A DNA stretch of 64,000 nt from Candidatus Foliamicus sp. (GTDB taxonomy: Bacteria; Pseudomonadota; Gammaproteobacteria; Steroidobacterales; Foliamicaceae). The stretch is taken from positions 1,465,360 through 1,529,359 of the forward strand of contig OZ252226.1 in assembly GCA_965249285.1 (NCBI GenBank), written 5' to 3'. This document shows positions 8,857 through 57,293 of this stretch, piece by piece. How positions within the stretch are numbered: position 1 is the stretch's first letter; each line of letters starts with the position of its first letter. Made by a program: the position numbers and the translations under genes. The notes beneath the pieces were generated by a model. It was not told where the DNA came from. It did not search any database and saw only the letters and a list, made by a program, of their open reading frames with translations.

Positions 8857-9375
8857 TCAGGAATCCTGCGGAATCAACATGAATAGCTGCTGGGCCACCC
8901 AGGCCGGCTTTTCCTGGCCTTCGATTTCCATGTACTTGTCGAGTTGAATCACCACCCGTCCGGCGCCCCGATCCCGAACTTCGGCCAGGGTGGAATGCAC
9001 CCGAACGCGCGAGTCGGAAGGCACCGGGTTGATGAAACGCAATTTGTTCAGACCGTAGTTGATCACAAAGCCCAGGTCTTCAATCTCGGCGAGATCGGGC
9101 GATTCCAGGTGCACCGATAAGGAAAGCGTCAGGAACCCGTGCGCGATCGTGGATTTGAATGGAGTTTCGCGCGCAACGCGCTGGGGGTCCACGTGAATGA
9201 ATTGGTGATCGGAGGTGCAGTCGGCGAACGCATTGATGCGCGCCTGATCCAGGTGCAACCATGCCGATGGAGCCAGCGTGCGCCCCTCCCGATCTTTGAG
9301 GTTTTCGATCTTCACAGGCGGTCTTCCGTAGTCTCTGATGCAGCGTCGAGCGGGTATAGTATATGGGTTCGGCAT
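8857..9375 (-). CDS. MaoC-like (R-specific enoyl-CoA) dehydratase, hot-dog fold
   Basis: 172 aa containing FADCTSDHQFIHVDPQRVARETPFKSTIAHGFLTLSL, the MaoC dehydratase signature region. The start codon is uncertain. Confidence 0.78.
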   Translation of the reverse strand: MPNPYTIPARRCIRDYGRPPVKIENLKDREGRTLAPSAWLHLDQARINAFADCTSDHQFIHVDPQRVARETPFKSTIAHGFLTLSLSVHLESPDLAEIEDLGFVINYGLNKLRFINPVPSDSRVRVHSTLAEVRDRGAGRVVIQLDKYMEIEGQEKPAWVAQQLFMLIPQDS

Positions 9376-9395
9376 CGCTTTCCGGGGGCATTCTG

Positions 9396-10343
9396 ATGAG
9401 CTCGCAAGACACTCGTGATCAAGGCAGTACCGGCTGGATGGCCGGAATTTTTGCGCGGCCGCCTTTTATCGGCCTGTTCCCGTTTGCGGTGTTCTTTTTG
9501 TCCCAGGGGCTAGGGCATGCGGTAATGATCCAGGTGGAGCGCGGCTTCGGGGCGCCGATCATGTATTACGCCGCCGGCGCCATGGGTTTGGTCGGCGCAG
9601 TGCTGCTTTGGATCGGCATGCGCCAGGACAGCGAGGTAAGCGCCACCTGGCTGGGTTATTTCGCCGCCTGGCTTATGTGGACCGGCTGGGTGGAGTTCTC
9701 GTTCGTTTACTACGCGCACTCGCTGGAGGTGGCGCCGTTGCTGGACGCGGCCGGCGAGATTGCTACCAAGCCGGAATACCTGGTAATGATGTCCTCGCTG
9801 GGCGTGATGCTGGCCACTCTGGTGTATTTCCTGTTCAACCGGGAAACGCGCTGCAATTTCTTCCGCTGGTTCCACCGCTGGCTGGGCTTGGGCACCGGCA
9901 AGCCCAGCGAAGGCCACAAGCGCAACTTCGCCGCCATCACGGCGCTGGAGACGATCTACCTGATCTGGTTCTTCTACCTGGCGCTGCTGCTGATTTACGA
10001 TGAAGCGGTGCTCGGCGACCAGCACCCGGTCACTTATGTCATCGCCTCGCTCAACGCGGTATGGGCGATCTTCCTGCTGCAGCGCCTGCTGCGCTTCCGC
10101 CGGGTAGCCACTGCGCTACGCTACTCGATTGCTACCGCCATAATTACCTGGAACGCGTACGAATTTGTCGGACGATGGGGCTGGGTCAACGATTTCTTTG
10201 TCCGGCCGGACAAGTACGGTTGGGAAATCACCGGTATTGCCGTGTTGTCGCTGGGAATCGTGGCCTTCTGCCTGTTCATGCCGGCGGGCAAACGCGAGCG
10301 CGAACGGGTGGCGGCGATGGAGCAGGAACTCAGCGCGAACTAG
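9396..10343 (+). CDS. polytopic inner-membrane protein of unknown function
   Basis: The ORF has about 8 hydrophobic segments and I recognise no family. The start could be 9363 or 9396. The TAG stop is formed by the first bases of the 10341-10611 element. Confidence 0.55.
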   Translation: MSSQDTRDQGSTGWMAGIFARPPFIGLFPFAVFFLSQGLGHAVMIQVERGFGAPIMYYAAGAMGLVGAVLLWIGMRQDSEVSATWLGYFAAWLMWTGWVEFSFVYYAHSLEVAPLLDAAGEIATKPEYLVMMSSLGVMLATLVYFLFNRETRCNFFRWFHRWLGLGTGKPSEGHKRNFAAITALETIYLIWFFYLALLLIYDEAVLGDQHPVTYVIASLNAVWAIFLLQRLLRFRRVATALRYSIATAIITWNAYEFVGRWGWVNDFFVRPDKYGWEITGIAVLSLGIVAFCLFMPAGKRERERVAAMEQELSAN

Positions 10344-10611
10344 TGTCGTGTCACACGTGTATCTTCGCATCAGAGCGTTCGTAGCGCGCCAATGCAAGGC
10401 GCAGCCCGCAGGGAATACTTTTTGCCGTATTGCCCAGGGCTGCAACGCCGCAGTGGCGCGCTACCAACGCTCCCGAAGGGCGCTTCTCCCTTGGCCCGTG
10501 GCGGCGTTGCGCCCCTGGGCAATGGGAGAGACGCCATTCCCGGCGGGACGCGCCCTGCCACGGACCAAGGGAGAAGCGCTGATGCGAAGATACAGGTGTG
10601 ACACGACACTA
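10341..10611. mobile_element. MITE-like non-autonomous element with 33-bp terminal inverted repeats and two internal hairpin modules
   Basis: Positions 10341-10373 (tagtgtcgtgtcacacgtgtatcttcgcatcag) are the reverse complement of 10579-10611 with 1 mismatch. Internal hairpins pair 10374-10391 with 10454-10471 and 10480-10502 with 10557-10579. There is no coding capacity and the flanks are TA. Confidence 0.6.
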
Positions 10612-10677
10612 GGCGCTACTTGATTTTTTTGTCCCGGGTCCGTCCTTTGGGGCGGGCTACAGGTCAGTACGTATTCA

Positions 10678-12441
10678 ATGAACATGCGATCTCATTATTG
10701 CGGCGAACTCAACGCCAAACACGTCGGCGCGCAGGTGGAAGTGTGCGGCTGGGTCAACGGGCTGCGCGATCACGGCGGCGTGATCTTCATTGATCTGCGC
10801 GACCGCGACGGCATCCTGCAACTCGTATGCAATCCCGACCAGGCCGAGGTGTTTGCGGTAGCCGAAAGGGCGCGCTCGGAATTTGTGCTGCGAGCGACGG
10901 GGGGCCTGCGGCTTCGCCCCCAAGGAACGATCAACCCGGAACTCAAGACCGGCGAAGTGGAACTGGTCGCCGAAACTCTGGAAGTCTTGTCGGCGGCGCG
11001 CGACCTGCCGTTCCACCAGGGCGAAGGGGCCAACGAGGAACTTCGCCTGAAATACCGCTATCTGGATTTGCGGCGTCCGGAGATGATCTCCCGGCTGCGG
11101 CTGCGCCACAGCGTGTTGGCCGCGATCCGCGCATTCCTGGATGAGCGCGGCTTCGTGGACGTGGAAACGCCCATGCTGACGCGCGCCACGCCGGAGGGCG
11201 CCCGGGATTTTCTTTCCCCGGCACGCAATCGGCCGGGGCGCTTCTATGCCCTGCCCCAGTCTCCGCAGTTGTTCAAGCAGTTGCTGATGATGTCGGGACT
11301 GGATCGCTACTACCAGATTGTGCGTTGTTTCCGCGACGAGGACCTGCGGGCCGACCGGCAGCCGGAATTCACTCAACTGGACGTGGAAATGTCGTTCGTG
11401 GACGAGGAAGAGGTGATGGGCCTGATGGAGGCCCTGGTCCGCGGCGTTTTTGCCGCTGTGCTGGATGTGCACCTGCCCGACCCCTTCCCGCGGATGTCCT
11501 ATGCCGAGGCCATGCAACGCTATGCCAGCGATGCGCCGGATTTACGCAATCCACTGGAACTGGTGGAGTTGAGCGATGTCCTGCGCGACACGGAATTCAA
11601 GGTCTTCTCGTCTCCCGCCCGGGACCCGGGCTGCCGGGTGGCGGCCTTGCGTATCCCCGGTGGCGCCGGCATGAGCCGGCGGGAGCTGGACGAACTCACT
11701 CAATTCGTTCAGGCCATGGGCGCCAAGGGCATGGCCTGGATCAAGATCGCAGACCCGGCACAAGGGCGCGAAGGCATGCAATCGCCGCTACTCAAGTTCC
11801 TGGGCGATAAGGAAATCACTGCGCTGCTCGAGAACACCGGAGCAGCCGCCGGAGACCTGCTGTTGTTCGGCGCCGGGTCCACGGCGATAGTGAACCGCAC
11901 TCTTTCGGCGCTGCGCGACCGCCTGGGGCGGGAGCGCGAACTGCTCCGCGACGGCTGGACCCCGCTGTGGGTAACCGAGTTCCCGGCGTTTGAGCTCGAT
12001 GAAGACGACAAGCGCTGGAAAGCCCTCCACCACCCGTTCACCGCGCCGGGAGTGACGGCTGCCGATGAACTGCTCAAACACCCCGGCAAGACGGTCTCGC
12101 GCGCCTACGACCTGGTACTGAACGGCCATGAGATCGGCGGCGGCTCCATCCGCATTCACCAGCGCGAAATGCAATCGGCTGTCTTTGAGTTGCTGGGGCT
12201 CTCGGCCGAGGAAGCCGACGCACAGTTCGGGTTCTTCCTGAAGGCACTGGAGTTCGGCGTGCCGCCCCATGGTGGCATCGCCTTCGGCATTGACCGCTGG
12301 GTCATGCTCATGGCGCAAGCGGAATCCATCCGCGAAGTCATTGCATTCCCCAAGACCCAGTCCGGCGCCTGCCCCCTCACCGGCGCCCCGGCTGCCGTGG
12401 AGTCGAAGCAGCTGCGCGAGTTGGGCATCCGCCCGTTATAA
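10678..12441 (+). CDS. aspS: aspartate--tRNA ligase
   Basis: 587 aa starting MRSHYCGEL..., with HGGVIFIDLRDRDG and the class II motifs. The start may instead be 10684. Confidence 0.95.
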   Translation: MNMRSHYCGELNAKHVGAQVEVCGWVNGLRDHGGVIFIDLRDRDGILQLVCNPDQAEVFAVAERARSEFVLRATGGLRLRPQGTINPELKTGEVELVAETLEVLSAARDLPFHQGEGANEELRLKYRYLDLRRPEMISRLRLRHSVLAAIRAFLDERGFVDVETPMLTRATPEGARDFLSPARNRPGRFYALPQSPQLFKQLLMMSGLDRYYQIVRCFRDEDLRADRQPEFTQLDVEMSFVDEEEVMGLMEALVRGVFAAVLDVHLPDPFPRMSYAEAMQRYASDAPDLRNPLELVELSDVLRDTEFKVFSSPARDPGCRVAALRIPGGAGMSRRELDELTQFVQAMGAKGMAWIKIADPAQGREGMQSPLLKFLGDKEITALLENTGAAAGDLLLFGAGSTAIVNRTLSALRDRLGRERELLRDGWTPLWVTEFPAFELDEDDKRWKALHHPFTAPGVTAADELLKHPGKTVSRAYDLVLNGHEIGGGSIRIHQREMQSAVFELLGLSAEEADAQFGFFLKALEFGVPPHGGIAFGIDRWVMLMAQAESIREVIAFPKTQSGACPLTGAPAAVESKQLRELGIRPL

Positions 12442-35201: not shown

Positions 35202-36446
35202 TTACTCGTAACGCAGCACGCTGGCCGGGTCGACTCGGGCCGCGCGCCGGGCCGGGTACCAGCTTGCCAGCGCCGACAACAACAGGCCCAGCCCGGCCAC
35301 CGAGAGCACCAGAGAGACTGACAACTGCGATGGAACCCCAGTCAGGTACATGACTTCCGCCGGCAGGAAATCGAAACCGAAGAAGTCTTCGAGGGTCGAC
35401 ATCACCGCATCGACGTTGCGCGCCAACCAGACGCCAAGAGCCCCGCCCAGCGCCACACCGACGATTCCCGCCAGCAGGCCCTGCAGGGAAAAAACCGCCA
35501 TGATGGTCGAAGTGCTAGCCCCCAACGTAGCGAGTATCGCAATTTCAGCGCGGCGCTCATTGACCGACATCACAAGCGTAGCAAGGACGTTGAACACGGC
35601 AACCGCGATGATGGCGGACAACAGCACAGCCATGGCCAGGCGCTCCAGCTGCACGGTTCGAAACAGCGCTTCATGCTCTTGCATCCAGGAACGCGGCGTA
35701 AGGCCGTGCCGTTGCACCGTCTCGGCATTGGACGCCCAGGTCTTCACCGCTTCGGGCGTGGCGTAGGGATCATTGCCGCGAACTTCCAGAGCGCTTGCCC
35801 GGCCGCCCAGGCCTGCCAGGTCCGACACGGTTTCCAGGCTTGCTATCGCCAAGCTCGTGTCGGCCCCGGCTACCCCCGCCTGGAATACCGCCCGAACCGG
35901 AAGGTCGCGCAAGCGCGGAGTGGCTCCTCCCGGTTGAGGGACCAATACTCGCACGATCTCGCCGACACGAACGCCCAAATCGTCGGCCAGGTAACTCCCG
36001 AGAGCCAGGCCGCCTTGGCGCCCATGCAGATCGTTGAAGGATCCCGCCGTTGCTCTTTCGCCATACTGCGCTGATTGCAACTCCGGATCGGCGGCGATTC
36101 CACGCAGCCGGACTACCGCAAACCTCCCCCTTGAGGACAACAGGCTTTCCACCTCAACGGTTGGCGCTACCGTAATGACCCCGGGGACTTTCGCCACCTC
36201 TTCGGCTATTTCGCGCCAGTCTTCAATGCCATCCTCGGCAACAAGCTTCACTTGCGCGTCGAACCTGAGCAAACGCTCACGCAACTCGGCCTCGAAACCA
36301 TCCATAACCGCGATCACCACGATCAATGCGGCCACGCCAAGGGCGATCCCGCCTACCGAGGCCAGACCGATGAAGGAAATGAACCGGTTGCGCGTGGGCG
36401 CGCGCAGGTAGCGCCAGGCGATGGCAAGCGATAGGGGCCGGAGCAT
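35202..36446 (-). CDS. lipoprotein-releasing system permease (LolC/LolE family)
   Basis: A paralogue of the previous gene with the N-terminus LSLAIAWRYLRA typical of LolC/E. I chose the ATG at 36446. It is divergent from mfd as in E. coli. Confidence 0.85.
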   Translation of the reverse strand: MLRPLSLAIAWRYLRAPTRNRFISFIGLASVGGIALGVAALIVVIAVMDGFEAELRERLLRFDAQVKLVAEDGIEDWREIAEEVAKVPGVITVAPTVEVESLLSSRGRFAVVRLRGIAADPELQSAQYGERATAGSFNDLHGRQGGLALGSYLADDLGVRVGEIVRVLVPQPGGATPRLRDLPVRAVFQAGVAGADTSLAIASLETVSDLAGLGGRASALEVRGNDPYATPEAVKTWASNAETVQRHGLTPRSWMQEHEALFRTVQLERLAMAVLLSAIIAVAVFNVLATLVMSVNERRAEIAILATLGASTSTIMAVFSLQGLLAGIVGVALGGALGVWLARNVDAVMSTLEDFFGFDFLPAEVMYLTGVPSQLSVSLVLSVAGLGLLLSALASWYPARRAARVDPASVLRYE

Positions 36447-36498
36447 CCGGTCATTGTCCCACGAACCCGCCGGCATTCGGCTTCATAATGCGCGCCGT

Positions 36499-39400
36499 AT
36501 GCGCGCACAACCCGACAGCCCGGCTCGGTTGCCGCAAGTCCTCCGTACCCACTGGCCGGAGCGGCCCGGCGCACCTCTACGGTTGCACGGGGTAACCGCG
36601 GGCGTGGCGCCATTGCTATGCGCGGAATTGATCGCCTGCCGGCCTTCATCCTGCGTTGTAGTGGTCACGCCCGACCCGGGCGGGACGGAGCAGTTCATGC
36701 AGCAAGTGGCCTGGCTGCGCGGGAACAAGGACGGCATGGCGCTGCTTCCCGATCGCGAAACACTGCCCTATGACCTGTTCAGTCCGCACCCGGAAATCAC
36801 CTCCAGGCGGCTTGAGACGCTCACCCGGCTGCTGGATCCCGAGTCATCGCAAATGCCCCAGACGCTGTTCGTGGCCGCTGCGACGCTCCTGGAGCGTCTG
36901 CCGCCACGCACGCAATTCCGCCAGTGGCTCGGATTTTCCTGCCGCGTGGGTCAGGAACTGGACCCGGAGTCCCTGCGGCAGCGGCTGGAGGAGGCCGCCT
37001 ATGTGCGCGCGCCAATGGTCAATGAACCTGGTGAATACGCGGTCCGGGGCGCCTTGATCGATCTTTACCCCAGCGGCGCCGCCGCGCCGGTGCGCATCGA
37101 ATTCTTCGACCTTGAAGTTGAATCGATCCGCTTGTTCAACCCGGCCTCGCAGCGCAGCATCCAGACGCTGGACTCTTTCAAGCTACTGCCGGCCCGTGAG
37201 CTGCCCCTGGATTCAGGCAGCGTGGCGGCGTTCCGGGAACGCTTTCGGCAGCGGTTTCCCGCCAATCCCGCGCGGGCAGAAGTGTTTCGCAAGCTGGGCG
37301 AGGGAATGGCGCCCCAAGGCGCGGAAAACTACCTGCCGCTGTTCTTCGAGCACACTGAAAACCTTTGGGATTACCTGCCCGCGGACATCGCCGTGATTCT
37401 GCTCCCCGGCAGCGCGGCGGCCATGCAGGGCGAATGGGAGACGGCGGCGGATCGTTACAGGCAACGGGATGGCGACCCGGAGCAGCCCTGTCTGCCGCCC
37501 GAGGAATTGTTTGCGCCGCCGAAGGTGCACCAGGCCGCCATGGCAAGCTTGCGCTGCGTCGAAGGTCTGGCCGATCCCCTTCCCGATGTAGCGCGGCAGG
37601 CATACGCACTTTCCGTCAACGCCGGCCCCGCACCCATGGTGCCGCTGGCCCGCACTGATGATCACACCTCACTCGAGGCCTACTCAAACACGCCCGGCCG
37701 GAGAATCCTGCTGAACGCGGAAACCGCCGGTCAGCGTGAGTTGATCCGCGAACTGCTGGGCGGCCGGCGCCTCAAGCCGCTGGGAGTCGGGTCCTGGGCG
37801 GAGTTTCTGTCATCAAGGGCCCCCTTGTGCCTTGCCGAGAGCCCGCTCAATTGCGGCATCGCGCTGCCGGATGATCGGGTCATCCTGACCGAGCGTGAAC
37901 TGTTCGGCCGGCAACGGCCGCTGACCCGCCGCCGGCGCCGGGGTCAGCCGGATCCCGAGGCCATCCTGCAAAGTCTGGCGGACCTGACGCCTGGCGCGCC
38001 GGTGGTCCACGAAGATCACGGTATCGGCCGCTACGAAGGCTTGCAGCACATGGACGTGGGCGGCGCACCCGCCGAGTTCATGCGGGTGCGCTATGCCGGC
38101 GACGATCGTCTCTACGTTCCGGTGTCGGACATGCAGCTCATCACCCGCTATACCGGCGGGAATCCCGAGAACGCGCCGCTGCACCGCCTCGGTTCGGATG
38201 CCTGGGCCCGCATCAAGCGAAGGGCCGAGCAGCAATTGCGGGACGTCGCAGCGGAACTGCTCGACCTGCAGGCACAGCGGGCCGCGCGCCAAATGCCCGC
38301 CATGTGCGCGCTGCTCTCGGAAATGAGCGCTTTTGCGGCGCGCTTTCCGTACCGGCTCACGCACGACCAGGAACGCGCCGTCGAACAGGTCCTCGACGAC
38401 CTGGCATCCGGAAGGCCGATGGACCGGCTCATATGCGGAGACGTGGGTTTTGGCAAGACCGAAGTGGCCCTTCGCGCAGCGTTTGCGGCCGTAATGCAAG
38501 GCTTTCAGGTGGCGGTTCTGGCGCCCACAACCCTGTTGGCGGAACAGCTCCACCAGGTATTCAGCGACCGATTCGCGGATTGGCCGGTTCGGATCGAATC
38601 ACTTACCCGTTTCGGCAGAGGCCGCAAGAACGAACAAGTGCGGGAATACTTAAGCGACGGACGCGCGGACATAGTGGCGGGCTCCCACGGCCTTCTGAGC
38701 GCCGGCGTTCGTTTCAAGCGCCTGGGGCTGCTTGTAATCGATGAGGAACATCGCTTCGGTGTGCGCCAAAAGGAACGCATCAAGGCATTGCGGGCCGACC
38801 TGCACGTTCTTACCCTCACCGCAACCCCGATACCGCGTACGTTAAACATGTCGCTGGGCGGCCTGCGCGACCTTTCGCTGATCACCACGCCGCCGCCCGC
38901 GCGCATGGCGGTAAAGACCTTTGTTACGCCGTGGCGCAACAGCCTGATCCGTGAGGCCTGCGGGCGCGAATTGCGGCGCGGCGGAGCGGTTTTCTTCGTC
39001 CACAACCGGGTCCAGGACATCGACCGCATCGCCCGCGAAGTAAAGAACCTGCTGGGAGATGTGAGGCTCGAAGTGGCGCACGGCCAGTTGGTTGACACCG
39101 AACTGCAACGGGTCATGACCGACTTCTATCACCGCCGCTTCGACGTGCTGGTATGCACCACCATCATCGAGAGCGGCCTGGACGTCCCGCACGCCAACAC
39201 GATGCTGATCAACCGCGCCGACCGGCTTGGCCTTGCTCAATTGCACCAGTTGCGGGGCCGGGTCGGACGCTCGCATCACCAGGCCTTTGCTTACCTGATC
39301 CGGCCGCATGAGAAGGAAATGACCGCCGACGCGCGCAAACGGCTGGAGGCCATACAGGCAGCCGGTGAGCTGGGCGCCGGCTTTCTGCTTGCCACCCACG

Positions 39401-39996
39401 ATCTTGAAATCCGCGGCGCCGGAGAACTGCTGGGCGAGGAGCAATCCGGCCAGATTCAGCAGATCGGCTTCAGTCTCTACAACGAGATGCTGAATCGGGC
39501 GGTCGAGGACCTGCGCGGCCACACAAGCGGCCGTCCGGTTACGCCGGCCCATCCGCGCGCCGACCTGGAGCTTAACCTCGGCGCGCTGCTGCCGGAGGAC
39601 TACATGCCGGATGTCAACCAGCGCCTGAATTGGTACAAGCGGATAGCGTCGGCTGCCGATTCCTCAGAGCTGAACGCGCTCCTGGTGGAGTTGGTGGACC
39701 GGTTCGGCCCGGTCCCGGACTCGGCCCGCAACCTGTTCCGCCAGGCACGCATCCAGCAACGTATGCGGGAGTTGCGAATACAGATGCTGCAAGCGGCAGC
39801 CCACGGCGGTGAAGCGGAGTTTCACAGCGACACGCCGGTAGATCCTTTGCGGCTGGTGGCGATGGCCCAGCAGCAACCGCAAGAGTTCGCCCTGCGCCCC
39901 CGCGGCGAGCTCAAGTTCCGCGCGGACCTTGCCGAGCCGGAGCAGCGCTTCCGCTACGTCGAGCGCCTTATGACTATGCTGGAAAACCCAAAATAA
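36499..39996 (+). CDS. mfd: transcription-repair coupling factor Mfd
   Basis: About 1165 aa with a UvrB-homology N-terminus, an RNAP-interaction domain, superfamily 2 helicase motifs (GDVGFGKTEVA, DEEHRFG) and a TRG motif. The start is uncertain (36421 or 36499). Confidence 0.95.
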   Translation: MRAQPDSPARLPQVLRTHWPERPGAPLRLHGVTAGVAPLLCAELIACRPSSCVVVVTPDPGGTEQFMQQVAWLRGNKDGMALLPDRETLPYDLFSPHPEITSRRLETLTRLLDPESSQMPQTLFVAAATLLERLPPRTQFRQWLGFSCRVGQELDPESLRQRLEEAAYVRAPMVNEPGEYAVRGALIDLYPSGAAAPVRIEFFDLEVESIRLFNPASQRSIQTLDSFKLLPARELPLDSGSVAAFRERFRQRFPANPARAEVFRKLGEGMAPQGAENYLPLFFEHTENLWDYLPADIAVILLPGSAAAMQGEWETAADRYRQRDGDPEQPCLPPEELFAPPKVHQAAMASLRCVEGLADPLPDVARQAYALSVNAGPAPMVPLARTDDHTSLEAYSNTPGRRILLNAETAGQRELIRELLGGRRLKPLGVGSWAEFLSSRAPLCLAESPLNCGIALPDDRVILTERELFGRQRPLTRRRRRGQPDPEAILQSLADLTPGAPVVHEDHGIGRYEGLQHMDVGGAPAEFMRVRYAGDDRLYVPVSDMQLITRYTGGNPENAPLHRLGSDAWARIKRRAEQQLRDVAAELLDLQAQRAARQMPAMCALLSEMSAFAARFPYRLTHDQERAVEQVLDDLASGRPMDRLICGDVGFGKTEVALRAAFAAVMQGFQVAVLAPTTLLAEQLHQVFSDRFADWPVRIESLTRFGRGRKNEQVREYLSDGRADIVAGSHGLLSAGVRFKRLGLLVIDEEHRFGVRQKERIKALRADLHVLTLTATPIPRTLNMSLGGLRDLSLITTPPPARMAVKTFVTPWRNSLIREACGRELRRGGAVFFVHNRVQDIDRIAREVKNLLGDVRLEVAHGQLVDTELQRVMTDFYHRRFDVLVCTTIIESGLDVPHANTMLINRADRLGLAQLHQLRGRVGRSHHQAFAYLIRPHEKEMTADARKRLEAIQAAGELGAGFLLATHDLEIRGAGELLGEEQSGQIQQIGFSLYNEMLNRAVEDLRGHTSGRPVTPAHPRADLELNLGALLPEDYMPDVNQRLNWYKRIASAADSSELNALLVELVDRFGPVPDSARNLFRQARIQQRMRELRIQMLQAAAHGGEAEFHSDTPVDPLRLVAMAQQQPQEFALRPRGELKFRADLAEPEQRFRYVERLMTMLENPK

Positions 39997-40000
39997 CCCC

Positions 40001-40054
40001 CCTGGGAAAGAGGGCATCCTGCCCTCGACGCAGGCAAGACGTCCCCTCCCCAGG
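40001..40054. repeat. REP pair immediately after the mfd stop
   Basis: cctgggaaagagggcatcctgccctcgac + gcaggcaagacgtcccctccccagg (the second unit is degenerate). Confidence 0.7.
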
Positions 40055-40296
40055 TTTCCCACACTCGTCCTACCCTCACGAAGCGCTCAAGCAAGAGCTA
40101 CAGCTCCCAAGGCCATTTGCCCAAGAGTCAGAAACTACCGCCAATATCGTGAGAAATTCGTATTGACACTTCTCCGGGTTCGGTTGTATTCCCGCTAGCG
40201 TTCCCGGCCTTTGGCAGTACGCGTCCCCCAACGTTCCGGCGGGAAGCAGACCCCAAGGGCCATTTTTGTTGAACTGATGACATGGAGGTCAGGACT

Positions 40297-40869
40297 ATGT
40301 CCACTGCTATCCTGGTTGACACGGCCTTCTTTCTGAAGCGATTCCGCCATGTCTACCCGGATCTGAATGCCAAAAATCCAACGATTTTCGCCGCCACGCT
40401 CTGCAAGATGTGCATGGCTCATGTTGGCGATGCCGACTTGTATCGGATCCTGGTTTACGACTGCCCGCCCCTAAATAAGCGAACGCATCATCCAATTACG
40501 CAGGAACTCGTAGACTTCCTAAAGCTCCCGGGCGCCCTATTCCGGTTGGAGTTTCACAAGCAGCTAAAGCAAAAGCGCAAAGTGGCGCTCCGTCTGGGTT
40601 ACCTCAGAGCGCAAAATTGGATAATCACGCCTGAAGCGGGGAAGAAACCTCTCGCCGGCAAGATAACGCCAGATCAGCTACAGCGGACCAACGCGAGATT
40701 CGACATCACCCAAAAAGGCGTCGACACAAAAATCGGGATTGATATTACTTCGCTCGCCTTGAAGCGCATGGTTAAGCAAATCGTGTTGGTGTCGGGCGAC
40801 GGCGACTTCGTGCCGACTGCAAAGTTGGCCAGACGCGAGGGGATCGATGTCGTATTGGATCCAATGTGA
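40297..40869 (+). CDS. NYN-domain (LabA/PIN-like) putative ribonuclease; the in-frame TGA may truncate it
   Basis: AILVDTAFFLKR...YRILVYDCPP...QKGVDTKIGIDI...LVSGDGDFVPTAKLARREGIDV is the NYN acidic-residue pattern. A GGAGG sits 8 nt before the ATG at 40297. G+C is much lower than in the neighbours. The frame stays open for 27 codons after the TGA, to 40953. Confidence 0.72.
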   Translation: MSTAILVDTAFFLKRFRHVYPDLNAKNPTIFAATLCKMCMAHVGDADLYRILVYDCPPLNKRTHHPITQELVDFLKLPGALFRLEFHKQLKQKRKVALRLGYLRAQNWIITPEAGKKPLAGKITPDQLQRTNARFDITQKGVDTKIGIDITSLALKRMVKQIVLVSGDGDFVPTAKLARREGIDVVLDPM

Positions 40870-40988
40870 TCTCACATCGGGGACGCGCTCCACGAGCACA
40901 TTGACGGCCTGCGTTCAACATCCCCTAAACCGCACAATTACAGAGCTGTCTGACCTTCGATCGCAATGGCGGACAGGCTACTGTTTGG

Positions 40989-41046
40989 CCATAGGAGTTT
41001 TCGCAGCGGGCGCCGTTGCGCTGACGCGCAGGGCACCAACGCTGGG
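40989..41046. repeat. inverted, degenerate copy of the REP tail module inside the low-GC islet
   Basis: ggagttttcgcagcgggcgccgttgcgctgacgcgcaggg is the reverse complement of the 57252-57293 tail (gtcagcgcaacggcgcccgctgcgaaaac is identical). Confidence 0.65.
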
Positions 41047-41199
41047 GACGATTGGGAAAAGCAGACACCTGCAACATGACGCTGCCAGGTCGTTCGCACA
41101 ACGCATAGCCTACCCTGGGGAGAGCTACGGATTCCTTCCTCAGCCGCTTCCGCCAGCGACGAGCGAGTACTTGCAGTGTGCAAGCCGTAAACTAGGCGC

Positions 41200-41859
41200 A
41201 TGTCTTCGCGCGTCACGTTTCGCTGTCTCAAGCCAGCCGTGCGAAGCGTCTTAGCCACTCTGCTGGGGCTTACGAGTCTCGCGCTTGCTCCCGCAACGGG
41301 TTTGGCGCAGGAAAACGACTTCCGGGTTGCTCTGGAGATGGTGGTGTTCGCCCAACTGGAACCGGAGGCCAGCACGGAGGACATTCTGGTGACTCCGCCT
41401 GACCTGCCTCCCGCGCGGACTTATCCCGCGCCTATTCGGCTGCCGGATGCAGGACCTGTGACGCCACAGACGCCACCCGGCGTAGTTGCGCTTACCCGCG
41501 CCCAATACGCGCTGGACGGGATTTGGGGGGCAATGCGCCGCAGCGCCGAGTACCGCCCGCTGGCCCATTTCGCCTGGGCCATGCCCGCGGAATGGAACGG
41601 CGCGGCAATCCCCTTGCGTCTATCGACCTTGTCCGCTGCTCCACTGGCTTTCAGTGGACAGGTTTCGCTGGAGGAGGATCGGTTCGTGCAACTCACGCTG
41701 GATGTGCGCCTGCCTGCCGAGCCTGACGCGGCAGGAACGTATCGCCTGACCGAGCGACGGCGCCTGCTTCTGGGAGAGATCCACTACTTCGACCATCCCC
41801 GCTTCGGTGCAATCGTGAGGCTATTCCGCTATCGCTCCCGGCCGCAAGCGGAAGAATGA
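41200..41859 (+). CDS. CsiV-like (DUF2803) periplasmic protein
   Basis: It has a signal peptide (LALAPATGLAQE), then ...VALEMVVFAQ..., and a C-terminal HYFDHPRFGAIVRL motif that I associate with the CsiV family. It occupies the position next to mfd as in Vibrio and Pseudomonas. Confidence 0.55.
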   Translation: MSSRVTFRCLKPAVRSVLATLLGLTSLALAPATGLAQENDFRVALEMVVFAQLEPEASTEDILVTPPDLPPARTYPAPIRLPDAGPVTPQTPPGVVALTRAQYALDGIWGAMRRSAEYRPLAHFAWAMPAEWNGAAIPLRLSTLSAAPLAFSGQVSLEEDRFVQLTLDVRLPAEPDAAGTYRLTERRRLLLGEIHYFDHPRFGAIVRLFRYRSRPQAEE

Positions 41860-41882
41860 ACACAAGCTGATCCGGAGCGAGG

Positions 41883-41938
41883 CAAAGGAGCGAGGGCATC
41901 CTGCCCTCGACGAGGGCGAGACGCCCTCGTTCCCAGCG
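41883..41938. repeat. REP pair flanked by a 20-bp direct duplication (41863-41882 and 41939-41958)
   Basis: ggagcgagggcatcctgccctcgac + gacgagggcgagacgccctcgttccc. The flanks are caagctgatccggagcgagg and caagctaatccggagcgagg. Confidence 0.85.
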
Positions 41939-57135: not shown

Positions 57136-57293
57136 CCCTGGAGGGAGGGCATCCTGCCCTCCGAGGACGGGGCGTCCTCGCTTGCATGGAACAACCTGGG
57201 AACCAGGGCTTCCAGCCCTCGCCGAGGGCAAGATGCCCTCGCTCCATTGCTTCCTGGCGTCAGCGCAACGGCGCCCGCTGCGAAAACCCTCAG
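57136..57293. repeat. composite REP element (four units plus tail module) between truB and rpsO
   Basis: ggagggagggcatcctgccctcc, gacggggcgtcctcgc, gggaaccagggcttccagccctcg and gagggcaagatgccctcgctcc are followed by the tail ...gtcagcgcaacggcgcccgctgcgaaaaccctcag. It is homologous to 26540-26683. Confidence 0.85.

What the first reader, a model, noticed from the sequence alone, without database searches (positions are those of the whole stretch)
40057..41199. Low-GC islet between mfd and csiV carrying a solitary NYN-domain nuclease gene with an in-frame TGA
mfd and the CsiV-like gene are direct neighbours in the Vibrio and Pseudomonas gene orders I know. Here they are separated by about 1.1 kb whose composition is visibly different, by eye about 50% G+C against about 65% around it, with many aaa/aat/tta/ata codons. 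The only convincing gene is a NYN (PIN-like/LabA-type) domain protein with a strong GGAGG SD. It stops at TGA 40867-40869 right after ...GIDVVLDPM. The same frame then stays open for 27 more codons (SHIGDALHEHIDGLRSTSPKPHNYRAV*, next TGA at 40951-40953) with the same low-GC codon style. This suggests either a recent TGG-to-TGA nonsense mutation truncating the C-terminal helix or stop-codon readthrough. The flanks hold imperfect direct repeats cccaaggccattt (40106) and cccaagggccattt (40252), and a degenerate inverted REP tail (40989-41046). No partner gene (antitoxin, ATPase, sensor) is present. If this is a defence or toxin-type nuclease it is either orphaned or regulated by the roughly 240-nt untranslated flanks.
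Basis: partly seen in the sequence, partly recalled or inferred. Interest (0 to 1): 0.55.

Follow-up and report, generated by a model that had tools for sequence, protein, structure and literature searches.

The report
Decaying mobile NYN RNase cassette
A 1.2-kb piece of foreign DNA between two housekeeping genes carries a ribonuclease gene that is being inactivated (its in-frame TGA is a real nonsense mutation), and the gene comes with a conserved, previously unlisted RNA hairpin that accompanies this gene family in phages, plasmids and many bacteria.

Summary
The mfd–csiV gap (39997-41199, 1,203 bp) is the lowest-GC 1.2-kb stretch of the window, at 56% against 63.6%. It holds one NYN (PF01936) gene, 40297-40869.

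- Intact homologues are about 218 aa.
- Trp follows LDPM in at least 90% of them.
- The 27 codons after the TGA match the family's conserved tail.
- Eight sister-strain assemblies (about 98% nt identity) carry TGG there, but have their own +1 G frameshift 43 nt downstream.
- The closest other species (L009) keeps only a remnant with a 472-bp internal deletion.
- Nine further related species have mfd abutting csiV, with no islet.

So this is an acquired gene undergoing three independent inactivations.

There is also a new result. The 5' flank is not anonymous. It holds a promoter and a 56-nt terminator-like hairpin (40206-40261, followed by a U-run). The hairpin has an AGUA/GAA internal loop of the sarcin-ricin type. 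My covariance model finds this hairpin directly upstream of NYN homologues in 52 of 85 genomic and metagenomic loci and 75 of 80 viral loci. It finds none in 886 kb of control DNA. Fifteen of its 16 base pairs covary. Rfam 15 has no matching family above threshold; TEG147 is the nearest.

The family sits in prophage lysogeny modules and on conjugative plasmids, with no partner protein. Its function is inferred, not shown.

The parts
36697..39996 (+). mfd (transcription-repair coupling factor), the left neighbour. Homology to relatives' mfd ends at about 39987. The last three codons (NPK) and the stop are lineage-specific.
   Evidence: ORF. The gene is called as 1099 aa, with Mfd Pfam domains, in sister strains. 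nhmmer with the empty-site profile matches 39901-39987, E 5e-17.
39997..40030 (.). G+C-rich hairpin just after mfd (GAGGGCATCCTGCCCTC at 40011-40027). It is a host REP-like element. A 30-bp unit containing it is tandemly duplicated in two sister strains.
   Evidence: Sequence. Duplication in L004 and L006. Related copies after csiV and at about 57150-57240.
40163..40192 (+). Promoter of the NYN cassette: -35 TTGACA at 40163-40168, an 18-nt spacer, then -10 TATTCC at 40187-40192. The -10 is degenerate, because relatives have TAnnnT.
   Evidence: TTGACA and the TA of the -10 are invariant in an alignment of five otherwise unrelated upstream regions. Host-type promoters are visible upstream of the hairpin in many of 50 loci. 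The simple promoter scan does not call it in the window, since the last -10 base is C.
40206..40272 (+). Conserved leader RNA hairpin plus U-run.
- P1: 40206-40214 paired with 40253-40261.
- Internal loop: CAGUAC (40215-40220) opposite AGACC (40248-40252). This is an AGUA/GA(N) loop of sarcin-ricin type.
- P2: 40221-40227 paired with 40241-40247, with one G.A mismatch.
- U-run: AUUUUUGUUG at 40262-40271.
   Evidence: Covariance model R1 hit at 40203-40276, 55.8 bits, E 2e-12. Covariation: 15 of 16 pairs change on both sides; 92.5% of cells are paired against 74.0+-0.9 in shuffles, with 0 of 500 shuffles as high. At least 5 T in the 9 nt after P1 in 47 of 52 copies. No Rfam 15 match for this copy.
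40284..40288 (+). Shine-Dalgarno GGAGG, 8 nt before the start codon.
   Evidence: Sequence. GGAG is conserved in relatives.
40297..40869 (+). NYN-domain RNase gene, truncated to 190 codons by a TGA. It also carries lineage-specific V31F, L118P and A174T changes at positions conserved in at least 90% of the family.
   Evidence: Pfam, PHROG and PADLOC scans. Alignments A1 and A10. Differences from sister strain L005.
40867..40869 (+). Nonsense codon TGA replacing the conserved Trp191 codon TGG.
   Evidence: TGG in L001-L008 and in the L009 remnant. W191 is at least 90% conserved.
40870..40953 (+). Orphaned 3' end of the NYN gene: 27 codons plus the original TGA stop. It still encodes the conserved tail SHIGDALHEHIDGLRSTSPKP.
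   Evidence: Alignment to 218-aa homologues. Sister strains have a +1 G inserted at window position 40912.
40992..41036 (.). Host repeated element (REP-like) downstream of the NYN gene.
   Evidence: Second copy at window 57247-57290 on the minus strand, and a copy in L009 at 10070-10113. The 40954-41060 stretch folds with z = -3.8.
41146..41196 (+). Possible degenerate relic of the original mfd 3' end, displaced by the insertion. It ends in the CCGTAAACTAG motif that precedes csiV in empty-site relatives. The evidence is weak.
   Evidence: Collinear nhmmer match to the empty-site profile, but only E = 2.4 over the whole window. The CCGTA(A/C)ACTAG motif is seen.
41200..41859 (+). CsiV-like gene, the right neighbour.
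   Evidence: PF10972 at 63.3 bits. It abuts mfd in nine related species.

Best explanation
The islet is the remnant of a small mobile cassette. It landed at the very 3' end of mfd in the common ancestor of this species and its nearest sister species, both Gammaproteobacteria near 'Candidatus Foliamicus'. It is now decaying.

**The intact cassette**, as seen in hundreds of other loci, has four parts in order:
1. its own promoter;
2. a roughly 56-nt hairpin with a sarcin-ricin-type AGUA/GAA internal loop, which is followed by a U-run and so looks like an intrinsic terminator;
3. a Shine-Dalgarno sequence;
4. a 218-aa NYN (PIN-like) ribonuclease gene.

This cassette typically rides in the lysogeny module of temperate phages, between the repressor and the integrase, or between cI and N. 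It also rides on conjugative plasmids. It has no partner protein.

**In this window** the ribonuclease gene has been knocked out by a TGG-to-TGA nonsense mutation at the conserved Trp191. This removes a 27-residue tail that is among the most conserved parts of the family. The gene has also collected three missense changes at near-invariant positions. Sister strains lost the same tail through a +1 G frameshift. The sister species lost 472 bp of the gene.

**Inferred, not shown:**
- The intact protein is a lysogen- or plasmid-expressed RNase used in exclusion, defence or addiction.
- The hairpin keeps it off by terminating most transcripts. It may also be bound or cut by the RNase itself.
- In this host the gene is no longer useful, or is harmful, and so it is being lost.
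For: **Acquisition.**
- The islet is absent from nine related species, where mfd abuts csiV.
- It is present at the same site in 13 contigs of sister strains and as a remnant in L009.
- It is the lowest-GC 1.2 kb of the window.

**Nonsense mutation.**
- Intact homologues are 218 aa, W191 is at least 90% conserved, and the tail is conserved.
- TGG is found in sister strains and in L009.
- TGA is a normal stop codon in this genome.

**Independent lesions.**
- A +1 G at window position 40912 in L001-L008.
- A 472-bp deletion in L009.

**Relaxed constraint.**
- The NYN gene shows 2 synonymous against 6 non-synonymous differences plus 1 indel. mfd shows 46 against 19 (Fisher p = 0.017).
- The window-specific changes V31F, L118P and A174T hit positions conserved in at least 90% of the family.

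**NYN fold.**
- The AF2 model of homologue P0002 has pLDDT 91.7.
- Its best PDB match is the MARF1 NYN domain, 5yaa, E 8.8e-5, probability 1.0.

**Hairpin.**
- Model R1 hits directly upstream, on the same strand, in 52 of 85 loci and 75 of 80 viral loci.
- It gives 0 hits in 886 kb of control loci.
- Covariation is strong.
- G.U pairs outnumber A.C pairs 49 to 12, which points to a sense-strand RNA.
- 47 of 52 copies have a U-run.

**Mobility.**
- 65 phage records, 165 plasmid records and at least 482 IMG/VR stretches.
- In a lambdoid phage the gene lies between the cI-like repressor and N. In P2-like phiE202 it lies next to the integrase and a toxin-antitoxin pair.
- A tyrosine integrase lies downstream in 24 of 98 distinct clusters. 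A repressor lies upstream in 16 of 98.
Against: - No integrase or att site survives in the window. The proposed relic of a duplicated mfd 3' end is statistically weak (E = 2.4), so the route of insertion is inferred.
- The dN/dS contrast rests on 8 substitutions. It is only borderline against all flanking genes pooled (p = 0.054), and one flank gene (PNP) also shows 1 synonymous against 6 non-synonymous.
- The 190-aa product keeps all the predicted catalytic aspartates, so residual activity cannot be excluded.
- The read support for the single G-to-A change could not be examined.
- No experiment on any member of this NYN subfamily or on the hairpin was found in the library, so the function is inference.
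- E. coli lambdoid copies have a plain terminator hairpin without the AGUA/GAA loop, so the loop is not universal.
Confidence: 0.8

Rival explanations
1. The TGA is decoded: either programmed read-through or near-cognate reading by tRNA-Trp. A full-length 218-aa NYN protein would then still be made, possibly at a deliberately low level.
For: The frame stays open for 27 codons and still encodes the conserved tail. Near-cognate reading of UGA by tRNA-Trp would restore the ancestral residue (established knowledge).
Against: - TGA ends 10 of 29 long ORFs in the window.
- No relative has TGA at this codon.
- The lesion is recent: about 2% nucleotide divergence from TGG-bearing strains. An open tail is therefore expected by default.
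- The same copy carries three damaging-looking missense changes.
- Sister lineages destroyed the same region by frameshift and deletion.
Confidence: 0.06
2. The TGA is a sequencing or assembly error and the gene is intact in the organism.
For: It is a single-base difference. No other contig in the collection encodes exactly this 190-aa product.
Against: - It is a substitution, not a homopolymer-length error.
- The window's copy differs from sister strains at 7 other sites in the gene and 9 in the flanks, so it is a distinct allele rather than a consensus glitch.
- Decay of this gene is the rule in this clade.
Confidence: 0.05
3. The C-terminal truncations are adaptive rather than degenerative. 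Removing the tail would attenuate or re-tune a toxic RNase, and the 190-aa and 210-aa forms would remain functional.
For: - Two independent lesions in one species both spare the NYN core and hit only the tail.
- The promoter, hairpin and SD are still recognisable; R1 scores 55.8 bits.
Against: - The tail holds many invariant or near-invariant residues: L198, H201, D203 and G204 invariant; W191, E200 and P212 at 90% or more. It is therefore likely to be needed.
- The window copy also has L118P, A174T and V31F at conserved sites.
- The sister species deleted the whole core.
- The -10 box and P2 of the hairpin are also degraded in this clade.
Confidence: 0.12
4. The islet is ancestral to the whole group and was lost from the other species, rather than gained in this lineage.
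For: Presence or absence alone cannot polarise the event without a rooted species tree.
Against: - Nine species, and most more distant Gammaproteobacteria sampled, have mfd next to csiV.
- Composition is deviant.
- The gene family is demonstrably mobile on phages and plasmids.
- The empty sites are clean, with the csiV start within about 5-30 nt of the mfd stop.
Confidence: 0.03

Closest known systems
NYN / LabA-like domain family (Pfam PF01936). Solved examples: the MARF1 NYN domain (5yaa) and VPA0982 (2qip).
   Same: The Pfam match is above threshold. The predicted fold of an intact homologue matches the MARF1 NYN domain. The SGDGDF motif aligns with 2qip. The acidic residues typical of PIN-like RNases are conserved: D8, D143, D168 and D170.
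   Different: - Sequence similarity to any solved structure is very low: 13-15% identity by fold search and E 0.04 by sequence.
- This subfamily has extra beta-hairpin insertions and a conserved 28-residue C-terminal tail, WSxIGDxLHEHIDGL.STSPRP.
- It comes with a dedicated upstream RNA hairpin.
- No member has been studied, as far as the library shows.
PHROG 5783 (phage protein family of unknown function).
   Same: Full-length match, E 4.5e-62, residues 1-190 on profile positions 2-202 of 246. The profile extends well beyond the truncated window ORF, as an intact family member would.
   Different: The window copy stops where the profile continues. It lies in a chromosome with no phage genes around it.
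Rfam RF03535 TEG147 (60-nt Staphylococcus aureus transcript, typed Cis-reg).
   Same: The architecture is the same: an outer helix, an AGUA/GAA internal loop, an inner helix, then a U-run. The best copy of the NYN leader (L164) aligns to the model over its full length. The JAR3D survey lists the RF03535 loop as a sarcin-ricin motif (PMC13085918). Teg147 is detected as a short stand-alone transcript (PMC5826253), which is what a terminated leader would look like.
   Different: - Scores are far below the family threshold: 29.3 against 56.1 bits. The window copy gives no hit at all.
- In reverse, R1 scores the S. aureus element at only 13.4 bits.
- The S. aureus element is not followed by a NYN gene.
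Type III toxin-antitoxin / abortive-infection systems (ToxIN, CptIN, TenpIN).
   Same: A promoter, then a structured non-coding RNA, then a terminator, then an endoribonuclease gene. They are carried on plasmids and phages and have no protein antitoxin (established knowledge of ToxIN; cassette anatomy).
   Different: Type III antitoxins are tandem repeats processed by the toxin. Here there is one hairpin and no tandem repeat. The toxin folds are unrelated to NYN. Toxicity and RNA-protein binding are untested.
PIN-domain toxins that cut the ribosomal sarcin-ricin loop (M. tuberculosis VapC20/VapC26).
   Same: These are PIN-like nucleases whose substrate is a sarcin-ricin loop (PMC5175351, listed; also cited in bioRxiv 10.64898/2026.09.18.752725). 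The NYN cassette carries a loop of the same sequence type right next to a PIN-like nuclease gene.
   Different: VapC toxins have a protein antitoxin (VapB). No link between this NYN subfamily and rRNA has been tested. The resemblance is a lead only.
Lysogen-expressed 'moron' or exclusion genes in the immunity region of temperate phages (for example the lambda rexAB position between cI and N).
   Same: In a lambdoid E. coli phage the NYN gene sits between the cI-like repressor and N. In many viral contigs it lies between a repressor and the integrase. It has its own promoter and terminator, as morons do.
   Different: No exclusion or defence phenotype is known for it. It matches a PADLOC NYN model only weakly and partially (22 bits over 46 residues).

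Membership tests
NYN domain (PF01936) | Profile match above Pfam's gathering score | tested here: met
   39.2 bits against a cut-off of 24.2, residues 134-186.
NYN domain (PF01936) | PIN-like alpha/beta fold | tested here: met
   AF2 model of the 74%-identical intact homologue P0002: pLDDT 91.7. Best PDB match is the MARF1 NYN domain 5yaa_C, E 8.8e-5, probability 1.0, TM (target) 0.67.
NYN domain (PF01936) | Conserved acidic active-site residues | tested here: met
   D8, D143, D168 and D170 are invariant in 56 homologues and present in the window ORF.
NYN domain (PF01936) | Ribonuclease activity | not testable with these tools
Intact member of the 218-aa NYN subfamily (PHROG 5783-like) | Full-length ORF including the conserved tail W191...P212 | tested here: not met
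   TGA lies at codon 191. The PHROG profile continues 44 positions beyond the match.
Pseudogene of a horizontally acquired gene | Disabling lesion at a conserved position, absent from close relatives | tested here: met
   TGG in L001-L008 and L009 against TGA here.
Pseudogene of a horizontally acquired gene | Relaxed selective constraint | tested here: inconclusive
   2 synonymous against 6 non-synonymous, compared with 46 against 19 in mfd (p = 0.017). Against all flanking genes pooled, p = 0.054. Counts are small.
Pseudogene of a horizontally acquired gene | Insertion relative to an empty site in relatives | tested here: met
   Nine species have mfd directly followed by csiV.
Rfam RF03535 TEG147 | Covariance-model score at or above the gathering score (56.1 bits) | tested here: not met
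   The window copy gives no hit at E <= 10. The best relative scores 29.3 bits.
Intrinsic (Rho-independent) terminator | G+C-rich stem followed directly by a U-run | tested here: met
   P1 is a 9-bp stem followed by AUUUUUGUUG in the window. 47 of 52 family copies have at least 5 T in 9 nt. The simple scanner does not call it, because the 'loop' exceeds its 8-nt limit.
Intrinsic (Rho-independent) terminator | Transcripts end at the U-run | not testable with these tools
   This needs Term-seq or 3' RACE.
Type III toxin-antitoxin system | Tandem repeats of antitoxin RNA upstream of the toxin gene | tested here: not met
   No tandem repeats in 39950-41250. One R1 hit per locus as a rule.
Type III toxin-antitoxin system | Terminator between the RNA and the endoribonuclease gene | tested here: met
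   The hairpin plus U-run lies between the promoter and the SD.
Type III toxin-antitoxin system | The RNA neutralises the toxin, and the toxin is growth-inhibitory | not testable with these tools
   This needs experiments.
Integrase-borne genomic island or prophage remnant | Integrase gene and flanking att direct repeats | tested here: inconclusive
   There is no integrase in the gap. The candidate duplicated mfd 3' end at 41146-41196 is weak (E 2.4). Relatives of the cassette often sit next to integrases (24 of 98 clusters).
PADLOC 'NYN' defence component (PDLC01154) | Full-length profile match | tested here: not met
   Only residues 140-185 match profile positions 229-272 of 310, at 22.3 bits.

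The most novel reading that the evidence does not exclude
The hairpin would not be just an attenuator but the RNA partner of the nuclease. It would be a sarcin-ricin-loop mimic, made in excess as a short terminated transcript, that binds or is cut by a NYN RNase whose real target is a sarcin-ricin-type loop such as the one in 23S rRNA. That would make the cassette a new, single-hairpin kind of RNA-antitoxin / abortive-infection module, carried in the lysogeny region of many temperate phages and on conjugative plasmids. It would also explain why the gene has no partner protein, and why it is repeatedly disabled once it is stranded in a chromosome.
Probability: 0.15. Interest if true: 0.8.

Novelty: new variant of a known kind. 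Interest (0 to 1): 0.55.

Why it matters
For this genome the result is modest. It is a clean, datable example of a foreign gene arriving at the end of mfd and then being disabled three separate ways in close relatives. This says the gene is dispensable or costly in these bacteria.

The wider point is the cassette itself. A NYN ribonuclease family with thousands of members occupies the slot in prophages where exclusion and defence genes usually sit, and also rides on conjugative plasmids. It always travels with a covarying hairpin that carries a sarcin-ricin-type loop and doubles as a terminator. Neither the protein subfamily nor the RNA seems to have been studied, and the RNA is not in Rfam 15 above threshold.

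This gives a directly testable hypothesis for how a stand-alone, potentially toxic RNase is kept in check without a protein antitoxin. It also offers a possible explanation for the orphan S. aureus transcript Teg147.

Tried and rejected
- **Rfam on the window copy.** No relevant hit at E <= 10. On ten cleaner copies the only hit was sub-threshold TEG147.
- **TEG147 as the S. aureus version of the same cassette.** I located the element in S. aureus-derived DNA (L176). No NYN gene follows it, and R1 scores it at only 13.4 bits. I rejected membership and kept only the architectural resemblance.
R1 with filters off finds nothing there.
- **A displaced copy of the mfd 3' end as attR.** The match is collinear and in the right place, but it is not significant over the whole window (E 2.4). 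I report it only as a weak lead.
- **Similarity of 41127-41155 to the NYN N-terminal coding region** (repeat D1, 72%). I judged this a chance match or part of the same weak mfd relic.
- **Sequence search of PDB.** Only a marginal hit to 2qip.
- **PADLOC.** Only a partial, weak NYN hit. NCBIfam gave nothing above cut-off.
- **Literature searches.** Searches for NYN with prophage/anti-phage, sarcin-ricin, type III TA and Cpp15 returned nothing on this subfamily.
- **SRLase1** (bioRxiv 2026) is BECR-like and unrelated.
- **Alternative genetic code or selenocysteine at the TGA.** Rejected, because TGA is a common stop here and the homologous residue is Trp, not Cys.
- **Exact-sequence look-up of the 190-aa product.** Not on record.
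Full report
**1. The observation**

mfd ends at TAA 39994-39996, and a CsiV-family gene (PF10972, 63 bits) begins at ATG 41200. That leaves a 1,203-bp gap.

The gap is 56.0% G+C, against 63.6% for the window. It is the minimum of all 1.2-kb sliding windows in the 64 kb.

The gap holds one convincing ORF, at 40297-40869. It is preceded by GGAGG at 40284-40288. It matches Pfam NYN above threshold (39.2 bits against 24.2) and PHROG 5783 at E 4.5e-62.

The ORF ends at TGA 40867-40869. The frame then stays open for 27 codons, to TGA 40951-40953.

**2. The in-frame TGA is a nonsense mutation at a conserved tryptophan**

I searched with the read-through product (TGA read as W) and found 5,638 relatives. 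The closest intact ones are 218 aa, exactly the read-through length. They align end to end at 70-74% identity.

In alignments of 22 and of 56 sequences, the residue after LDPM is Trp in at least 90%. The following tail, xxIxDxLxEHIDGLxSTSPRP, is among the best-conserved parts of the protein. L198, H201, D203 and G204 are invariant. The window's orphaned codons encode SHIGDALHEHIDGLRSTSPKP.

TGA terminates 10 of 29 long ORFs in the window, so it is a normal stop codon in this organism.

**3. Close relatives show two further, independent lesions**

The nearest protein (P0001, 210 aa) occurs on 13 contigs from several assemblies. In all of them it sits in the same place: mfd, then NYN, then csiV.

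Over the islet these sister strains are about 98-99% identical to the window in DNA. They carry TGG at the Trp codon. They also have one extra G at the position corresponding to window 40912 (CTGCGGTTC against CTGC-GTTC). That extra base shifts the frame and ends the protein at ...LRFNIP.

The best-matching GTDB species representative, a 'Candidatus Foliamicus sp.' MAG (L009, Mfd C-terminus 89% identical), has the same left flank, promoter, hairpin and first 83 nt or so of the gene. After that there is a 472-bp internal deletion (window 40380-40851 is missing). Then comes the tail, with TGG and no extra G: DPMWSHIGNALLEHIDGLHSTSPRPRNYIAA*.

The ancestral state was therefore an intact 218-codon gene. 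It has since been disabled three times: by nonsense here, by frameshift in sister strains, and by deletion in the sister species.

Polarising the six amino-acid differences between the window and L005 with the family alignment gives the following. The window branch acquired N27, V31F, L118P, A174T and W191*. Three of the four substitutions fall at positions conserved in at least 90% of the family. The other branch acquired V159A and the frameshift.

The synonymous to non-synonymous ratio is 2:6 in the NYN gene, against 46:19 in mfd, 3:0 in csiV and 5:0 in the GH3 gene. PNP is 1:6, however, so this is suggestive only (p = 0.017 against mfd; p = 0.054 against all flanks pooled).

**4. The islet is an insertion**

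Nine further species of the same group (Mfd C-terminus 83-85% identical) have the csiV start within about 5-30 nt of the mfd stop, and no NYN sequence. Many more distant Gammaproteobacteria also show mfd followed by csiV.

Homology to the relatives' mfd ends at about 39987. The motif CCGTA(A/C)ACTAG lies just before csiV in the empty sites, and it is retained at 41186-41196. The inserted DNA is therefore roughly 39988-41185.

The stretch 41146-41178 may be a degenerate copy of the original mfd 3' end. That would suggest integration into the end of mfd, with duplication of the target. The match is not significant on its own (E 2.4 over the window).

No integrase remains. In L009 the site has also collected about 4 kb of other cargo and an IS.

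Host REP-like hairpins flank and invade the islet: at 40011-40027, and at 40992-41036 with a second copy at 57247-57290.

**5. The 5' flank is a conserved promoter-plus-hairpin module**

I aligned the upstream regions of NYN genes from unrelated contexts, where the proteins are about 70-74% identical and the neighbouring genes differ. This showed a conserved TTGACA, a 17-18-nt spacer and a TAnnnT. After these comes an invariant GCCTTTGGCAGTACG block and, further on, a matching CCCAAAGGC.

Eighty further loci from metagenomes (proteins 43-54% identical) showed the same design with different helix sequences. The design has these elements:
- an outer 8-9-bp helix (P1);
- an internal loop, CAGUA(A/C) opposite C(C/U)GA(N)C;
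- an inner helix of about 7-8 bp with free sequence (P2);
- a variable apical loop;
- a U-run directly after P1.

**5a. Evidence that the structure is real.**
- On a MAFFT alignment of 13 copies, my proposed structure has 92.3% of cells paired, against 77.9+-1.8 in shuffles. Ten of 16 pairs show compensatory changes. Register-slid controls reach 64% or less.
- RNAalifold independently recovers P1 on 31 sequences.
- I built a covariance model, R1, from those 13 copies. It finds the element at E <= 1e-3 in 52 of 85 NYN-bearing loci. Every hit is on the gene's strand, and those checked against the NYN start lie just upstream of it.
- R1 hits directly upstream of the NYN gene in 75 of 80 IMG/VR viral loci.
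- R1 also finds it upstream of the gene in Burkholderia phage phiE202 (40 bits).
- R1 gives no hit at E <= 1 in 886 kb of mfd loci that lack the gene.
- On the 52-sequence alignment, 15 of 16 pairs show changes on both sides. 92.5% of cells pair, against 74.0+-0.9 in shuffles. None of 500 shuffles reaches any observed measure. This alignment is fitted to the model, which favours the structure.
- G.U pairs outnumber A.C pairs 49 to 12, as expected for an RNA read on the sense strand.
- 47 of 52 copies have at least 5 T in the 9 nt after P1. The model includes those columns, so this count is somewhat circular.

**5b. The window's copy.** It spans 40206-40261 with a U-run to 40271, and scores 55.8 bits. 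It is slightly degraded. It has a U.G wobble pair where relatives have U-A, a G.A mismatch in P2, A instead of C at the first 3' loop position, and a -10 box ending in C.

**6. Relation to known RNAs**

Rfam 15 has no hit for the window copy.

The cleanest copies give one sub-threshold match, to RF03535 TEG147 (29.3 bits against 56.1 needed). TEG147 has the same layout, including the AGUA and GAA strands.

That family derives from a 60-nt S. aureus transcript of unknown function (PMC5826253; PMC7779021). A 2026 survey lists its loop as a sarcin-ricin motif (PMC13085918).

In S. aureus-derived DNA the element is not followed by a NYN gene, and R1 scores it only 13.4 bits. I therefore treat it as the nearest known relative in architecture, not as the same family.

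Calling the NYN leader's loop 'sarcin-ricin type' rests on its sequence and on this analogy. It is an inference.

**7. What the cassette is**

*Fold.* The protein is NYN/PIN-like. The AF2 model of a 74%-identical intact homologue has pLDDT 91.7, and the MARF1 NYN domain is its best PDB match. The usual acidic residues are invariant.

*Mobility.* The family is strongly associated with mobile elements:
- 65 phage records, including 48 Stx2a-converting phages;
- 165 plasmid records, of which 129 are conjugative and 134 are from Campylobacter;
- at least 482 IMG/VR stretches.

*Position.* In lambdoid phage ev099 the gene lies between the cI-like repressor and N. In P2-like phiE202 it lies beside the integrase and a toxin-antitoxin pair.

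*Neighbours.* I clustered neighbouring ORFs over 98 distinct NYN clusters. A tyrosine integrase lies downstream in 24, a serine recombinase downstream in 5, and an HTH plus S24 repressor upstream in 16. No other recurrent neighbour, and so no dedicated partner protein, was found. Chromosomal copies in other bacteria are solitary genes among housekeeping genes.

*My inference.* This is a self-contained accessory gene of the 'moron' type. It has its own promoter, a terminator-hairpin that keeps expression low, and an RNase that serves the mobile element in exclusion, defence or addiction.

Whether the hairpin is only a cis attenuator, an autoregulatory site, or an RNA antitoxin cannot be decided here. 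The layout (promoter, RNA, terminator, endoRNase) resembles type III toxin-antitoxin systems. The defining tandem repeats are absent, however.

PIN-domain toxins that cut the ribosomal sarcin-ricin loop are known: VapC20 (PMC5175351; also cited). That makes a loop-mimic hypothesis worth testing, but nothing here tests it.

E. coli lambdoid copies have a plain hairpin terminator without the special loop.

**8. Verdict**

This is a horizontally acquired, solitary NYN nuclease gene, cut short by a recent TGG-to-TGA mutation. As a feature of this genome it is a decaying pseudogene, which is ordinary.

Two things raise the interest. One is the triple independent inactivation in close relatives. The other is the family-wide hairpin, apparently undescribed, that turns the 'solitary' nuclease into a two-part RNA-protein cassette.

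Noticed in passing
window 40206-40272; also L089-L173 and L177-L256, just upstream of each NYN gene: A conserved, covarying terminator-like hairpin with an AGUA/GAA internal loop accompanies this NYN family in genomes, phages and metagenomes. It is not in Rfam 15 above threshold. I built model R1 for it.
   Followed up: yes
L009 7189-11860 (OZ250178.1, Ca. Foliamicus sp.): The same mfd-csiV site in the sister species holds the NYN remnant plus about 4 kb of extra cargo: two or three secreted-looking hypothetical ORFs, an ORF (9006-9977) that looks like a formylglycine-generating-enzyme/sulfatase-modifying protein, and an IS transposase (about 10324-11540, G+C up to 75%). The ORF identities are my reading of the translations and were not checked against Pfam. 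The site acts as a local insertion hotspot.
   Followed up: partly
L004 and L006, just after the mfd stop (corresponds to window 39997-40030): Two sister strains carry a 30-bp tandem duplication of the REP-like hairpin unit CCTGGGAAAGAGGGCATCCTGCCCTCGACG immediately after mfd.
   Followed up: no
window 40011-40027, about 41870-41900, and 57150-57290: A family of host REP-like G+C-rich hairpins (GAGGGCATCCTGCCCTC and relatives) sits after several genes. A second repeat type (40992-41036) recurs at 57247-57290 on the minus strand and in L009 at 10070-10113.
   Followed up: partly
L176 2995-3063 (OR844992.1, deposited as 'Staphylococcus phage SA 1306 Kay', UNVERIFIED_ORG): The S. aureus Teg147 element occurs here with convergent host-like genes downstream and no NYN gene. 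The 183-kb record is flagged UNVERIFIED_ORG, and the ORFs beside the element look like host genes, so it may be bacterial chromosome rather than phage.
   Followed up: partly
L202 2929-2998 and 3941-4010: One viral contig has two R1 hairpins, one upstream and one downstream of the NYN gene. This may be a second cassette or a duplicated leader.
   Followed up: no
proteins P0041-P0043, P0047, P0057 (alignment A1): Other close homologues (66-73% identical) are also shortened. Some are N-terminally short forms of 171-180 aa. P0047 has a frameshift-like divergent end after ...PAAKLS. Decay of this gene may be common in related metagenomic lineages.
   Followed up: no
L164 3709-3802 and 1665-1846; L098 2251-2324: In some metagenomic loci the NYN cassette lies next to tRNA genes (tRNA-Sec, and a tRNA about 100 nt upstream of the hairpin) and a sub-threshold 6S RNA match. 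This is consistent with integration of mobile elements at tRNA genes.
   Followed up: no
window 36421-36696: The longest mfd ORF starts at 36421, 92 codons upstream of the start implied by the 1099-aa gene called in sister strains. It overlaps the divergent lolE-like gene, so the annotated mfd start is uncertain.
   Followed up: no
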